DNA from: a virus | Lineage: Duplodnaviria; Caudoviricetes | Reading direction: 5' to 3' (one strand) | Length of the DNA: 59,971 bases | Virus record (IMG/VR): IMGVR_UViG_3300025769_000114 | Coordinates: 1-59,971 of that record | Shown: in pieces, positions 3,652 through 51,528 of the stretch | Position numbering within the stretch: the first letter of the stretch is position 1 | How the letters are laid out: each line of letters begins with the position of its first letter | Notes under the pieces: generated by a model | Seen by the model: the letters and a program-made list of their open reading frames with translations, nothing else | What the model was told of the DNA's origin: nothing | Database searches by the model: none | Made by a program: the position numbers and the translations under genes

Positions 3652-3894
3652 ATGTGCTATCTAGCGATGGCAGAGGAATGGGGCTTGGACAACGGTGATA
3701 AGGCATTGAATCAGATCTCTACTCACGAGCAAGTGTGTGAGCAGCGTTACCTGCGTATTGAAGAACGTCTTGCCAGTGGGTCTAAACGGTTTGATGAGCT
3801 TGAAGCAAAGATGGACACTGTATCCAACAGATTATGGTGGATCATCGGTTTAATTGTAGTGAGCATTTTAGTGCCACAGTTTTTAGGAGGTTGA
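3652..3894 (+). CDS. Coiled coil plus C-terminal TM protein (XhlA-like lysis accessory)
   Basis: HEQVCEQRY...coiled coil...LWWIIGLIVVSILV. Confidence 0.6.
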   Translation: MCYLAMAEEWGLDNGDKALNQISTHEQVCEQRYLRIEERLASGSKRFDELEAKMDTVSNRLWWIIGLIVVSILVPQFLGG

Positions 3895-37963: not shown

Positions 37964-39055
37964 TTAGCGAGTGGCCTTGTGGGCCACATACTCAGGGGTT
38001 GATAGCAGGTCTGCATCGCGGCGCGTTGCCAGCGCCCAGAACACCTCGACCAGTTCTTCGTTGATGCGCTTGAGAACAACCACTGCATTGCCAAGGTTGT
38101 CAGTGGTCACCCGTGCAGCCAGCGCAGCGGTCACTGCATACTGAGTAGTGATCTCATTCGGCAGCGGCACGTTGTGCGGATCTGACAGAAACAAGTTGAT
38201 GTCTGGCAGGTTACGCATGGTGCGGACAAACGCCATAAACTCAGCGGCAGCGCCGAATCCTACGGCACCCTCAATGGCGATCTGCTCAAGATCAGCAGGT
38301 AAATCGTCACTGAGAATGTCAGACACTGATTGCCAGCCGCGAGGTGTAGCGATAGCCACCCTGTCTTTAGGTGTGCCGCCATCGGGGAACTCGTGAATGA
38401 GTCCGGCCTGATCACCTGATGCCTCACCGCGAAACTTCAGGAACGCAACCACAAGCGGGTTAGCGCCAGTGTCTGCAAGGTAGTCGCTGGTCTCAGCAGC
38501 GGACGGCACAACATCCAAGTGATACTTGAATCTTGTACTTACGGCAGCGTCGATGCGGCCAGACACACCAGCACCGTCATTGGGTCGATTAGATGCAGCG
38601 ATAACAAACCAGCCCTTGGGCAGGATGTAGTCGCCAAGCCGACCATCGTTTAGTAGCTGGTAAGACGCGAATTGCGCTGATTGAGTGCCAAGCATTAGCT
38701 CATCCATAAGCAAGCAGCCCTCTGGGCCGTCGCGCTCCACGTTGGGTAGCCATGATGGCGTAGACCATTCGGTTGTGGATGCTTCGCCGTCGCCGCTGAT
38801 GTACGGGACACCGCGAGTATCGACTGCATCCAACTGTGACAGGCGTACATCAATCAGGCCTATCGGTCTGTCGAGAGTCTTGGAAAGCTTTTCCATAGCC
38901 TGACGGACGATTGAGGACTTAGCTGCCGCGTAGATGCCCCACAGAAATATAGGCAACTGGCGCTTGTCGCTAGACAGTTGAGAGGTCGCATGTGCGAGTA
39001 TTAGTTGTGCAGCCTGTGAAGGGCTGACTTTCGGTGCGTTTATTGATTTAGTCAT
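37964..39055 (-). CDS. MoxR-like AAA+ ATPase with atypical Walker A
   Basis: IFLWGIYAAAKS, IDVRLSQ.D..D.RG.P, LLMDEL, IAASNR, ATPRGW. Confidence 0.88.
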   Translation of the reverse strand: MTKSINAPKVSPSQAAQLILAHATSQLSSDKRQLPIFLWGIYAAAKSSIVRQAMEKLSKTLDRPIGLIDVRLSQLDAVDTRGVPYISGDGEASTTEWSTPSWLPNVERDGPEGCLLMDELMLGTQSAQFASYQLLNDGRLGDYILPKGWFVIAASNRPNDGAGVSGRIDAAVSTRFKYHLDVVPSAAETSDYLADTGANPLVVAFLKFRGEASGDQAGLIHEFPDGGTPKDRVAIATPRGWQSVSDILSDDLPADLEQIAIEGAVGFGAAAEFMAFVRTMRNLPDINLFLSDPHNVPLPNEITTQYAVTAALAARVTTDNLGNAVVVLKRINEELVEVFWALATRRDADLLSTPEYVAHKATR

Positions 39056-39090: not shown

Positions 39091-39151
39091 ATCCAAGACC
39101 GCCCAGAGGGCGGTTTCACGCTGGTCACCAGCCAGCACTCGTCAGTTGGAT
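39091..39151 (-). ncRNA. Type I hammerhead ribozyme HH1
   Basis: AUCCAA CUGACGA GUGCUGG cugguga CCAGCGU GAAA CCGCCC ucu GGGCG GUC UUGGAU: full core and three stems; predicted cleavage between 39097 and 39096. Confidence 0.92.
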
Positions 39152-39360
39152 TAGGTCTCTAGGGTTGCAGCAGGGTCGAACTTCCATTGATCTGCAAGCT
39201 TGTAATAGAGGCGAGCAAACTGTTTGCGCTTTGCAATGTTGAACGATGGAGTCTCAACATGGGGGTTGCGGTCTCCATCCGCCTTTGCCAGCGCCTCAAG
39301 CAAATCCAATACCTCAGATCGGGCTTGTTCTTGCGGTGTGTGTCCGTACTTGTTTCTCAT
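39151..39360 (-). CDS. Hypothetical early protein
   Basis: GGAG SD; stop codon abuts HH1. Confidence 0.7.
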   Translation of the reverse strand: MRNKYGHTPQEQARSEVLDLLEALAKADGDRNPHVETPSFNIAKRKQFARLYYKLADQWKFDPAATLET

Positions 39361-39385
39361 TGGTTATGCTCCGTAGTTGGAATGG

Positions 39386-39634
39386 TTAGTCAGAACCCCA
39401 AGGTCTGGCGTTCAGCTTTTTAAGTCGGGCACCAGACACCGTGGCATCCATGACGGCACCTGACCAAGCACGATTGGTTAGCTCTACCAAATGCTCGCCG
39501 TTGTGGCCTTTCCAGAATGCGGTGCCTGTTGTTACCCATGTCTGATGCTTGAGTCCTTTAACTGGCACAACCACATCGGTGTCCACTCTTATCTGTTGCT
39601 TTTCGTTCATCTTTATCCTCAGTCGGTTTTCCAA
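39386..39634 (-). CDS. Hypothetical early protein (start UUG 39634 or AUG 39610)
   Basis: Both candidate starts have SD-like sequences. Confidence 0.65.
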   Translation of the reverse strand: MENRLRIKMNEKQQIRVDTDVVVPVKGLKHQTWVTTGTAFWKGHNGEHLVELTNRAWSGAVMDATVSGARLKKLNARPWGSD

Positions 39635-39693
39635 GACCGTGCCTCCTACACGGTTTCACGCCACTAACCAAGCGGCACTCATCAGTTGGAAAA
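39627..39693 (-). ncRNA. Type I hammerhead ribozyme HH2
   Basis: UUUUCCAA CUGAUGA GUGCCGCU ugguu AGUGGCGU GAAA CCGUG uaggagg CACG GUC UUGGAAAA; predicted cleavage between 39635 and 39634. Confidence 0.92.
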
Positions 39694-39933
39694 GGTTAGG
39701 TTATCGGTGAACAGCTTGAGTTCTGCGTGTTCCCAGCGGTCTAGCCAATCGACCTGAGCCTTAACCTGCGGCCAGCGCAGGGTGTGGCCTGTCTGCTTTT
39801 CGTAGTCGGCAAGTATCTGATCGGACAACTTGCCAATGCTCAGAATCCATTGCAGCCGTTCACGGTTGCTCAGGTTGGTGCGGTCTAGGTTCTGCTTGAT
39901 GTCATCAATGTCTGAGTTGTACTGCTCAATCAT
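39682..39933 (-). CDS. Hypothetical early protein
   Basis: ATGA coupling; its UGA stop is part of the HH2 core. Confidence 0.7.
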   Translation of the reverse strand: MIEQYNSDIDDIKQNLDRTNLSNRERLQWILSIGKLSDQILADYEKQTGHTLRWPQVKAQVDWLDRWEHAELKLFTDNLTFSN

Positions 39934-50932: not shown

Positions 50933-50967
50933 GAACAGGGCTGCTTTCGAGTGGCCCTTGTTCTTTT
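50933..50967 (+). terminator. Rho-independent terminator after the capsid gene
   Basis: GAACA GGGCTGCT TTCG AGTGGCCC T TGTTC TTTT. Confidence 0.75.
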
Positions 50968-50977
50968 CCTGACTAAT

Positions 50978-50993
50978 TGTTTCACATGAAACA
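50978..50993. promoter_or_regulatory. parS-like palindrome
   Basis: TGTTTCACATGAAACA, 15/16 match to TGTTTCACGTGAAACA. Confidence 0.45.
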
Positions 50994-51021
50994 TTTAGAC
51001 TAACCCAGACAGGAGACTACA

Positions 51022-51528
51022 ATGGGTACTACGACTTTCACGGGTGCAGTTCGTTCTGAAAGCACCTTCAAAACTGTAAGCAAAGACAGCACTTCTGGTG
51101 CTATTACTGAAGTTGCAACTATCGGTGACGGCCCCGTTAGCCTTGCTGATGGCAACGTAACCTTAACTAACGCCACTCACAGCGGACGAATACTGCTGGT
51201 TCCAGATGGCGGACAAGACAACACCTATACCTTACCAGCGCCTATTGCTGGATCTGTGTTTAGGTTTGTTTACGCTGGCGGTGCCGCTGACGCAACTGAT
51301 GCGCTTATCGTTACCCCCGGAAACACTAATTTTTACATTGGTGGTGTTACTTTCCTTGATACTGACAACGAAGTTAGTGCAGTTTTTTCTGATGGCAACT
51401 CAAATAGCAGCATTCAGTTAAACGTACCTGCTGGCTTTGATGTAACGATTATTGGTTTGAACACAACCAATTATCAGATCTTCGGCACTGTTACGGGCGC
51501 AACTGCACCTGCATTTGCTGATCAGTAA
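51022..51528 (+). CDS. Head fibre/decoration protein
   Basis: TTFTGAVRS start; HSGR....TYTLPA; AGGAG SD. Confidence 0.7.
   Translation: MGTTTFTGAVRSESTFKTVSKDSTSGAITEVATIGDGPVSLADGNVTLTNATHSGRILLVPDGGQDNTYTLPAPIAGSVFRFVYAGGAADATDALIVTPGNTNFYIGGVTFLDTDNEVSAVFSDGNSNSSIQLNVPAGFDVTIIGLNTTNYQIFGTVTGATAPAFADQ

What the first reader, a model, noticed from the sequence alone, without database searches (positions are those of the whole stretch)
39605..39693. HH2 overlaps a stop codon, a perfect SD and a start codon: possible translation-coupled ribozyme switch
Seen: the UGA of the catalytic CUGAUGA is the stop of ORF 39682..39933, so stem I lies in coding sequence. Loop III is UAGGAGG, 7 nt before an in-frame UUG that is the first triplet after the cut. 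A second start (AUG 39610, GAGGA SD) lies downstream. Inference: terminating ribosomes would unfold the ribozyme; uncleaved RNA could initiate at UUG, whereas cleavage removes that SD, so cleavage may report upstream translation and switch isoform or expression level. HH1 loop III lacks an SD, so this feature is copy-specific and could be coincidental.
Basis: partly seen in the sequence, partly recalled or inferred. Interest (0 to 1): 0.72.

Follow-up and report, generated by a model that had tools for sequence, protein, structure and literature searches.

The report
Phage hammerhead ribozyme between two genes
This is a genuine self-cleaving hammerhead ribozyme sitting between two genes of an uncultured aquatic phage, a known kind of element, and its overlaps with a stop codon and a possible start codon come mostly from the ribozyme's own conserved sequence rather than from a special translation switch.

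Summary
HH2 (39693-39627, minus strand) and HH1 (39151-39091) are real type I hammerheads. A descriptor scan finds only these two. 300 simulated windows gave none of comparable quality. A model built from relatives scores them 72.5 and 78.5 bits, with the next hit at 11.6.

The family has 51 distinct copies in about 50 viral contigs. Its three stems and a pseudoknot between loop II and the 3' tail covary.

The overlaps are family traits:
- The upstream gene stops at the core UGA in 19 of 51 contexts, and 7-12 nt before the core in 27 of 51.
- The UUG after the cut is stem I. Where stem I changes, it becomes UCG, UUA or UGG.
- The UUG is in frame with the next gene in 16 of 51 contexts, which is chance level.
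- Gene B relatives start at the AUG. In-frame stops lie just upstream in 3 of 5.

One feature stays unexplained: the SD-like loop III recurs (10 of 37 distinct loops; null mean 2.7).

Most likely this is constitutive processing of the operon mRNA between genes. A translation-coupled isoform switch is unlikely (about 0.1).

The parts
39682..39933 (-). Gene A (83 aa, no known family). Its last codons form the stem I 5' strand, and its stop is the first UGA of the hammerhead core.
   Evidence: ORF list. No Pfam or PHROG match. Orthologs at 83-91% identity in L002, L003, L009 and L010. In L002, L003 and L010 it ends with the same last two residues and the core UGA.
39627..39693 (-). HH2, a type I hammerhead. 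Stem I is 39693-39686 paired with 39634-39627. The core CUGAUGA is 39685-39679. Stem-loop II is 39678-39658. GAAA is 39657-39654. Stem-loop III is 39654-39636, with the loop AGGAGG at 39647-39642. C17 is 39635, and the cut falls between 39635 and 39634.
   Evidence: Sequence. Descriptor scan. Model R1, 72.5 bits. MFE fold of -24.9 kcal/mol equals the hammerhead fold. Covariation in relatives.
39623..39628 (-). 3' tail that can pair with loop II (39671-39666) as a pseudoknot. Two of its bases compete with the outer pairs of HH2's unusually long stem I.
   Evidence: Sequence. The four core pseudoknot pairs covary across relatives: G-C 27, A-U 7 and G-U 2 at one pair; U-A 34, C-G 3 and U-G 1 at another.
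39386..39610 (-). Gene B (74 aa from AUG 39610; SD GAGGA at 39620-39616). The UUG at 39634 would add 8 residues.
   Evidence: ORF list. Homologs start at this Met. Upstream in-frame stops, or an overlapping stop/start, in 5 metagenome loci.
39361..39385 (-). Junction between genes B and C. It keeps the first bases of a hammerhead (stem I 5' strand plus CU) fused directly to an SD leader, so it looks like the scar of a lost hammerhead.
   Evidence: Sequence. The 97.2% identity block with L005 ends at 39375. L005-L008 carry a full hammerhead at the matching place. L009 has the same hammerhead-less junction after gene A.
39151..39360 (-). Gene C (69 aa, no known family). Its UAA stop overlaps the first base of HH1's stem I.
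   Evidence: ORF list..
39091..39151 (-). HH1, the second type I hammerhead. The core is CUGACGA, loop III is pyrimidine-rich, and the cut falls between 39097 and 39096.
   Evidence: Descriptor scan. R1, 78.5 bits.
37964..39055 (-). MoxR-like ATPase gene. It is the conserved gene downstream of the hammerhead(s) in all close relatives.
   Evidence: phrog_1297, E = 2.5e-55. Relatives L002-L010. Isolate phages are annotated as MoxR-like ATPase at under 30% identity.

Best explanation
HH2 is one of two constitutively self-cleaving type I hammerhead ribozymes in a phage operon. Each is stabilised by a pseudoknot between loop II and the tail just 3' of stem I.

The operon order is gene A, HH2, gene B, gene C, HH1, ATPase, all on the minus strand. 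HH2 belongs to a family of hammerheads between genes in uncultured aquatic phages. These ribozymes fill the whole gap between two genes. The upstream stop lies at the core UGA or 7-12 nt before the core, and the next start lies a median 35 nt after the cut.

Cleavage cuts the operon mRNA into pieces:
- The upstream piece ends in the folded stems II and III with a 2',3'-cyclic phosphate.
- The downstream piece begins with a 5'-OH and a short leader that carries its own ordinary SD.

The stop in the core and the UUG after the cut are built into the conserved ribozyme sequence: UGA lies within CUGAUGA, and UUGG is the 3' strand of stem I. Gene B is made from AUG 39610.

Shown here: the motif, its covariation, the family-wide layout and the conserved N-terminus of gene B. 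Inferred: actual cleavage, and its effect on mRNA stability or translation.
For: - The motif is complete and unique in the window. Simulations give no comparable hit in 300 windows.
- R1 scores are 72.5 and 78.5 bits, against 11.6 for the next hit.
- 82 hits, 51 distinct, were found in 52 of 53 sources searched.
- 16 of 23 pairs carry changes on both sides, against a shuffled mean of 11.5, reached by 0 of 500 shuffles. 88.5% of cells are paired, against 29-43% when partners are slid by 1-3 columns.
- Layout over 51 contexts: stop at the core UGA in 19, stop 7-12 nt before the core in 27. The downstream ATG lies 13-65 nt after the cut, median 35.
- The triplet after the cut is UUG in 49 of 53 contexts. 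The 4 exceptions keep stem I paired.
- The UUG frame is at chance level, 16 of 51.
- Gene B homologs start at the Met matching AUG 39610.
- The predicted translation initiation region around the AUG is more open in the cleaved product: mean unpaired probability 0.81 against 0.51 uncleaved. This is a computation on one context.
- Perreault et al. 2011 (PMC3088659; passages read) describe clustered hammerheads that flank varying genes in prophages, pseudoknots in all three types, and cleavage of such RNAs in vitro and in E. coli.
- The 2019 review PMC6765202 (passage read) gives processing of polycistronic transcripts as the suggested role.
Against: - No cleavage data exist for this family.
- The only RNA-library run held one 151-nt contig of a relative, which cannot show RNA ends.
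- Rfam's curated models do not reach threshold.
- The 10.1-11.1 pair is G-U rather than G-C in HH2, HH1 and 8 other distinct copies. This may lower activity.
- The reading leaves two things unexplained. First, an SD-like AGGAG-type loop III recurs on different stems (10 of 37 distinct stem-loops, null mean 2.7, 1 of 5000 draws as high). Second, that loop goes together with a stop in the core (10 of 15 against 9 of 36, Fisher p = 0.0098) and with an open in-frame UUG (6 of 15 against 2 of 36, p = 0.005). These contexts are related by descent. Grouped by eye on the downstream leader (my own grouping, not a computed one), about 4 of 9 groups are open.
- A hammerhead has been lost between genes B and C, so the element is not needed at every junction.
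Confidence: 0.7

Rival explanations
1. Ribosomes terminating at the in-core UGA UGA keep HH2 unfolded. Uncleaved RNA starts at UUG 39634 using the loop III SD and gives a longer gene B protein. Cleavage removes that SD. The ribozyme therefore reports upstream translation and switches isoform or expression level.
For: - The geometry is exact: AGGAGG, 7 nt, then UUG, in frame and open to AUG 39610.
- The stop lies in or next to the ribozyme in 47 of 51 contexts, so a terminating ribosome must cover stem I. This follows from the known footprint.
- The SD-like loop recurs. It goes together with a stop in the core (p = 0.0098) and with an open in-frame UUG (p = 0.005), uncorrected for relatedness.
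- The loop is predicted to be unpaired (0.84).
Against: - The UUG follows the pairing of stem I, not start-codon identity: UCG, UUA and UGG appear in 4 of the 16 contexts found only by the model.
- The frame is at chance level, 16 of 51.
- The same AGGAGG loop stands before leaders with an in-frame stop, for example L002 and L018.
- The extension is absent from gene B relatives.
- The spacer and the UUG are paired (0.15 and 0.23), and stem-loop III alone is worth -9.1 kcal/mol.
- The only amino-acid difference between the window's gene B and L005's lies in the putative extension.
Confidence: 0.1
2. The AGGAG-type loop III is a selected ribosome-docking (standby or tethering) site, or it drives a short leader ORF from the UUG. 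That ORF ends at or near the next gene's SD or start. The hammerhead would then help load ribosomes onto the downstream gene, on uncleaved RNA or while the cleaved products stay paired through stem I and the pseudoknot.
For: - All 12 distinct loops of 5 nt or more are AG(G/A)AGG-like or G-rich. The other 25 are 3-4 nt loops.
- The loop occurs on at least six different stem III sequences.
- Leader ORFs of 9 codons end inside the ATPase SD region in L018, L023, L056 and L022, and one stop overlaps the next ATG in L022.
- Eukaryotic RNA viruses use ribozymes to help translation initiation (PMC13725137; passages read).
Against: - Most of the family (27 of 37 distinct loops) lacks the motif, HH1 in this same operon included.
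- Every downstream gene has its own SD.
- The copies carrying the loop are related by descent.
- No experiment bears on this.
Confidence: 0.1
3. The hammerheads mainly mark exchangeable gene modules. Their conserved 60-nt sequence serves as a recombination site at the DNA level. In the bolder version, the excised 538-nt RNA between the two cuts re-pairs its own ends, because all copies share the same stem I, and is ligated into a circle.
For: - The block from HH2 through gene B (39691-39375) is 97.2% identical to L005. The ATPase side is 79.1% identical and the genes upstream do not align. The breaks fall at 39691, 39375 and 39150.
- L002 has one hybrid hammerhead, with the HH2 body and the HH1 leader, and lacks genes B and C.
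- A DNA contig of run X15 joins 39104 to 39651.
- The stem I sequence is nearly invariant while stems II and III vary.
Against: - Any 60-nt repeat would give such breakpoints by ordinary homologous recombination, so no function is implied.
- The search pattern fixed stem I in 37 of the 53 contexts.
- Perreault et al. report that they could not detect circular or spliced products (PMC3088659; passage read).
- This reading is compatible with the best explanation rather than opposed to it.
Confidence: 0.25

Closest known systems
Clustered hammerhead ribozymes in prophage polycistronic RNAs (Perreault et al. 2011, PMC3088659; passages read)
   Same: - Consensus hammerhead cores.
- Several copies on one strand that flank single genes or short gene blocks whose identity varies.
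- A pseudoknot in place of the loop-loop contact.
- The function proposed there is processing of long phage transcripts.
   Different: - This family is type I.
- It comes from uncultured freshwater and marine phages.
- The layout is quantified here: stop at the core or 7-12 nt before it, start a median 35 nt after the cut.
- One subfamily has an SD-like loop III.
- I could not see that paper's supplementary alignments, so I cannot say whether these very sequences are already in them.
Rfam Hammerhead_HH9 (RF02275), clan CL00010
   Same: It is the best Rfam match over the whole element, and the core letters align.
   Different: The score is 15.3 bits against a gathering score of 52. Stem lengths and loops differ. 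Nothing is reported at Rfam's own thresholds.
Synthetic hammerhead insulators and RBS switches (RiboJ; hammerhead riboswitches with the SD built into a stem). Recalled from my own knowledge, not from any call.
   Same: It works like them. A hammerhead upstream of an SD cuts away the upstream context and leaves a defined 5'-OH leader.
   Different: - This one is natural.
- The functional SD of gene B lies outside the ribozyme.
- The SD-like motif sits in loop III on the 5' product, so cleavage removes it rather than freeing it.
Ribozymes that assist translation initiation in fungal and plant RNA viruses (PMC13725137; passages read)
   Same: Type I hammerheads with a long helix III in 5' UTRs or between ORFs, with the cut a few nucleotides before the next start codon.
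   Different: - Those are eukaryotic, cap-independent and on RNA genomes.
- No SD logic is involved.
- That paper reports that those ribozymes lack the usual loop-loop contacts.
glmS ribozyme. The 2019 review PMC6765202 (passage read) names it as a bacterial self-cleaving ribozyme whose biological role has been proven. That it is ligand-controlled is recalled.
   Same: A self-cleaving RNA in a bacterial-type mRNA, where cleavage would set the expression of the adjacent gene.
   Different: - glmS has a different fold and a metabolite cofactor.
- No ligand pocket or extra domain is seen here.
- The proposed input, a ribosome, is untested.

Membership tests
Hammerhead ribozyme (type I) | Conserved core C3-U4-G5-A6-N7-G8-A9 and G12-A13-A14 | tested here: met
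   CUGAUGA at 39685-39679 and GAAA at 39657-39654 in HH2. CUGACGA and GAAA in HH1.
Hammerhead ribozyme (type I) | Three helices around the core, stem I open, stems II and III closed by loops, supported by covariation | tested here: met
   Stems of 8/8/7 and 6/7/7 bp. Of 23 pairs, 16 carry changes on both sides, reached by 0 of 500 shuffles. Helices I, II and III are paired in 99.6%, 97.0% and 98.3% of cells. Parts of stems I and III were fixed by the search pattern in 37 of the 53 contexts.
Hammerhead ribozyme (type I) | A15.1-U16.1 pair and H17 (not G) at the cleavage site | tested here: met
   A39654-U39636 and C39635 in HH2. A-U in all 51 distinct copies.
Hammerhead ribozyme (type I) | G10.1-C11.1 pair at the base of stem II | tested here: not met
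   HH2 and HH1 have G-U at this pair. Over the 51 distinct copies the counts are G-C 39, G-U 10, other 1 and gap 1. This is a tolerated variant of the pair rather than a core change. Its effect on rate is unknown.
Hammerhead ribozyme (type I) | Tertiary contact that holds stems I and II parallel (here a pseudoknot between loop II and the 3' tail) | tested here: met
   The four core pairs covary: G-C 27, A-U 7 and G-U 2 at one; U-A 34, C-G 3 and U-G 1 at another. The unpaired cells are almost all from the short-stem-II subgroup. The pseudoknot was not part of the model that made the alignment.
Hammerhead ribozyme (type I) | Score above Rfam's curated gathering threshold | tested here: not met
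   0 matches at gathering. Best match is HH9 at 15.3 bits against 52.
Hammerhead ribozyme (type I) | Site-specific self-cleavage | not testable with these tools
   This needs an in vitro transcription assay. The one RNA-library contig cannot show RNA ends.
   The UUG covaries with stem I and its frame is at chance level, 16 of 51. Gene B relatives start at the downstream AUG.
   Only the geometry is shown: the stop lies within -12 to +1 of the core's first base in 47 of 51 contexts.

The most novel reading that the evidence does not exclude
In the subfamily with an AGGAG-type loop III, HH2 included, the hammerhead would be a ribosome-sensing processing site. A ribosome stopping at the in-core UGA UGA holds stem I and the core open. 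The exposed SD-like loop then captures the released or a fresh small subunit for initiation at the UUG just after the cut site, giving a short leader ORF or an N-extended protein. Upstream translation would thus decide between keeping the two genes coupled on one RNA and cutting them apart. This would be the first natural bacterial-type ribozyme whose input is the ribosome itself.
Probability: 0.1. Interest if true: 0.7.

Novelty: new member of a known kind. Interest (0 to 1): 0.35.

Why it matters
The 2019 review read here (PMC6765202) says the purpose of bacterial and phage hammerheads still needs to be defined. This window adds a large, well-covarying family with a very regular layout: stop codon at or beside the core, the cut, a short leader, then SD and start.

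The family also offers natural presence/absence variants of the ribozyme and of the gene modules it bounds. These are ready-made comparisons for testing what the cut does to mRNA stability and translation.

The recurrent SD-like loop III is a concrete, cheap-to-test feature. If it proves functional, it would link ribozyme processing to the ribosome. If it does not, the element is an ordinary member of the known phage hammerhead clusters.

Tried and rejected
- Rfam at gathering thresholds found nothing. The whole-window E-value scan gave only weak, unrelated matches.
- The simple pattern CTGATGA...GAAA is uninformative: 4 matches against 1.2 expected.
- blastn of 2.5 kb against isolate phages found no match. 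By protein, the ATPase finds only relatives under 30% identity, so no cultured relative or host could be named.
- Pfam and PHROGs give no family for genes A, B or C.
- Sequencing runs: 23 DNA runs and one metatranscriptome run, X24, which holds 0.08 of the sampled words and is kept as contigs. One 151-nt contig of X24 covers 39651-39777 and runs on into a relative's stem III and across its cut site. Contigs cannot show RNA ends, and DNA may be present in the library. I therefore draw nothing from it about cleavage or expression. Parts of the stretch without cover in these runs are not evidence either.
- I looked by eye for pairing partners of the AGGAGG loop: the 5' flank CCUUUU, the stem I 5' strand UUCC, and HH1's pyrimidine loop. 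These give 4-6 pairs with wobbles or a mismatch, are not conserved in L005 or L023, and the MFE fold is the hammerhead. Rejected as unsupported.
- I checked whether the SD-like loop compensates for weak downstream SDs. No such trend appears.
- The two Fisher tests are not corrected for shared descent. After grouping contexts by eye on the downstream leader, about 4 of 9 groups are open. I treat them as hints only.
- Supplementary files of PMC3088659, which hold its alignments and gene-context figures, were not seen. They may already contain members of this family.
- Searches behind the statement that I found no natural hammerhead with an SD in a loop or a stop codon in the core in print. These were listings, plus passages of three papers. 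This is not proof of absence.

Full report
**What is there**

All positions are on the minus strand.
- Gene A (39933-39682, 83 aa) ends with UUU UCC AAC UGA. That UGA (39684-39682) is the first UGA of CUGAUGA (39685-39679). The second UGA is in the same frame.
- Stem II is 39678-39658, with a 7-nt loop.
- GAAA is 39657-39654.
- Stem-loop III is 39654-39636, with AGGAGG at 39647-39642.
- C17 is 39635. UUGGAAAA (39634-39627) pairs with UUUUCCAA (39693-39686) to form stem I.
- The cut therefore falls between 39635 and 39634, and UUG is the first triplet of the 3' product. It lies 7 nt after the AGGAGG and is in frame and open to AUG 39610, which has a GAGGA SD 5 nt upstream.
- HH1, a second copy with a CUGACGA core and a pyrimidine loop III, lies at 39151-39091, right after gene C and 41 nt before the ATPase start.

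**Is it real?**

Rfam reports nothing at its curated thresholds. The best local match is Hammerhead_HH9 at 15.3 bits, E = 0.77, against a gathering score of 52.

A descriptor requiring the core, GAAA, A15.1-U16.1, H17 and three stems finds only these two sites in the window, with stems of 8/8/7 and 6/7/7 bp. In 300 Markov-simulated windows the mean was 0.053 hits with stems of at least 3 bp, and none had all stems of at least 5 bp. The MFE fold is the hammerhead fold (-25.5 kcal/mol for 81 nt, z = -1.94; -24.9 for the 67-nt element).

**Relatives**

The window is a whole IMG/VR virus record.
- Nine viral contigs encode the ATPase at 77-96% identity. Of these, eight showed one or two complete hammerheads just upstream in the descriptor scan. 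The ninth, L003, has its single copy confirmed by the pattern scan and by R1 at 85 bits.
- A pattern of the conserved letters found 50 viral loci. These gave 36 distinct copies with flanks, aligned as A1.
- The covariance model R1 scores HH1 at 78.5 bits and HH2 at 72.5 bits, with the next window hit at 11.6 bits, filters off.
- R1 finds 82 hits, 51 distinct, in 52 of 53 sources. Twenty sources hold two or more copies and five hold four, always on one strand.
- On alignment A2, 16 of 23 pairs carry changes on both sides (shuffled mean 11.5, reached by 0 of 500 shuffles). 88.5% of cells are paired, against 29-43% when the partners are slid.
- The four core pairs of a pseudoknot between loop II (UGGU) and the tail just after stem I (ACCA or ACCG) covary: G-C 27, A-U 7 and G-U 2 at one pair; U-A 34, C-G 3 and U-G 1 at another.
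- Caveat: the pattern fixed parts of stems I and III in 37 of the 53 contexts. The pseudoknot was not in the model.
- The same architecture occurs in two Clostridia MAG contigs.

This matches what Perreault et al. 2011 described. Clustered hammerheads flank varying genes in prophages, pseudoknots occur in all three types, cleavage was shown for other examples, and the function is unknown (PMC3088659; passages read).

**Are the overlaps special to HH2?**

I tabulated 53 distinct contexts, meaning hammerhead plus flanks.
- *Stop codon.* Of 51 contexts with an upstream open frame of at least 45 codons, the stop is the core UGA in 19. It lies 7-12 nt before the core's first base, that is 0-5 nt before the five-pair stem I, in 27. 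It lies elsewhere in 5. Unrelated upstream genes thus share the last two codons, which are imposed by stem I. The stop in the core is a recurrent packing solution of the family. In 47 of 51 contexts a terminating ribosome would cover the stem I 5' strand. This rests on the known footprint and was not tested.
- *UUG.* It follows the cut in 49 of 53 contexts. Among the 16 contexts found only by the model, 12 have UUG and 4 have UCG (2), UUA (1) or UGG (1), each with a matching change in the 5' strand. The triplet is constrained by pairing, not by start-codon identity.
- *Frame.* The UUG is in frame with the next gene in 16 of 51 contexts (8 open, 8 with a stop), against an expected 1/3 (p = 0.67).
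- *Next start.* The next ATG lies 13-65 nt after the cut, median 35, and is preceded by a match to an SD core of 3 nt or more in 50 of the 51 assigned.

**Where does gene B start?**
- Four database homologs at 65-69% identity were called from the Met that matches AUG 39610. A gene caller's choice is weak evidence.
- Five metagenome loci with gene B relatives have no hammerhead directly upstream.
- In L064, L065 and L066 an in-frame stop lies 2-6 codons before that Met. In L062 and L063 the preceding ORF's stop overlaps it.
- The 8-residue extension is therefore not part of the conserved protein.
- In the predicted ensemble of the uncleaved RNA the loop III motif is open (0.84), but the spacer (0.15) and the UUG (0.23) are paired. 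The region around the AUG is more open in the cleaved product, 0.81 against 0.51 (one context, computation only).

**What remains unexplained**

The AGGAG-type loop is not copy-specific.
- Of 37 distinct stem-loops III, 10 hold GGAG, GAGG or AGGA wholly in the loop. The null mean is 2.7, and 1 of 5000 draws was as high.
- All 12 distinct loops of 5 nt or more are AG(G/A)AGG-like or G-rich. The other 25 are 3-4 nt loops.
- The loop goes together with a stop in the core (10 of 15 against 9 of 36, p = 0.0098) and with an open in-frame UUG (6 of 15 against 2 of 36, p = 0.005).
- These contexts share descent. Grouped by eye on the downstream leader, about 4 of 9 groups are open, which is not convincing.
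- The same loop also stands before leaders with an in-frame stop, as in L002 and L018.

I keep this as the basis of the novel reading, at about 0.1.

**Modules**

Against L005, the block from HH2 through gene B (39691-39375) is 97.2% identical. The ATPase side is 79.1% identical and the genes upstream do not align.

L002 has a single hybrid hammerhead and lacks genes B and C. A DNA contig of run X15 joins 39104 to 39651.

Between genes B and C (39385-39361) only the first bases of a hammerhead remain, fused to an SD leader. L009 has the same junction after gene A.

Hammerheads are thus gained, lost and recombined, and mosaic breakpoints sit at their edges. Ordinary homologous recombination at a 60-nt repeat is enough to explain this.

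**Verdict**

HH2 is a real hammerhead of a known kind, the phage clustered hammerheads between genes. It most likely acts constitutively to cut the operon RNA between gene A and gene B. Gene B then has a short 5'-OH leader with its own SD, and gene A has a structured 3' end.

Confidence by step:
- Motif and family: 0.95.
- Constitutive processing, with the overlaps as by-products: 0.7.
- Translation-coupled isoform switch: about 0.1.

No cleavage or expression data could be obtained.

Noticed in passing
window 39361-39385 (minus strand); L009 about 3690-3712: Between genes B and C only the first bases of a hammerhead (stem I 5' strand plus CU) remain, fused directly to an SD leader. L009 has the same hammerhead-less junction after gene A. 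It looks like precise loss of a hammerhead, possibly between short AACU repeats.
   Followed up: partly
window 39691, 39375 and 39150; L005, L002; run X15: Mosaic breakpoints sit at hammerhead edges. The block from HH2 through gene B is 97.2% identical to L005, while the ATPase side is 79.1% identical. L002 and one X15 DNA contig carry a single hybrid hammerhead and lack genes B and C.
   Followed up: partly
L029, L033, L055, L051, L060: Arrays of four hammerheads on one strand within about 1.6-3.2 kb. 20 of the 52 sources with a hit hold two or more copies.
   Followed up: partly
window 39684-39679 (minus strand): The core CUGAUGA gives gene A two in-frame stops (UGA UGA). HH1's CUGACGA core would give only one.
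   Followed up: no
window 39678/39658 and the same pair in HH1: The 10.1-11.1 pair at the base of stem II is G-U instead of the usual G-C. This holds in 10 of 51 distinct copies. The effect on activity is unknown.
   Followed up: no
window 50967-51024 (+): Weak match to the Rfam Mu-gpT-DE RNA: 27.9 bits, gathering score 49, E = 0.026.
   Followed up: no
L067:7048-7101 and L068:6228-6283 (minus strands): Hammerheads with the same stem I and the same pseudoknot between loop II and the 3' tail occur in two Clostridia MAG contigs from animal guts. In L067 a stop codon lies 2 nt upstream, and an SD and ATG lie about 30 nt downstream.
   Followed up: partly
L038:6681-6698 (+): A second CTGATGAG lies 10 nt upstream of the hammerhead's stem I. 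It may be a partial duplication of the core.
   Followed up: no
run X24, contig on window 39651-39777: A 151-nt contig from a metatranscriptome library continues into a relative's stem III (AGGAGG-type loop) and across its cut site. Contigs cannot show RNA ends, and DNA may be present in the library.
   Followed up: no
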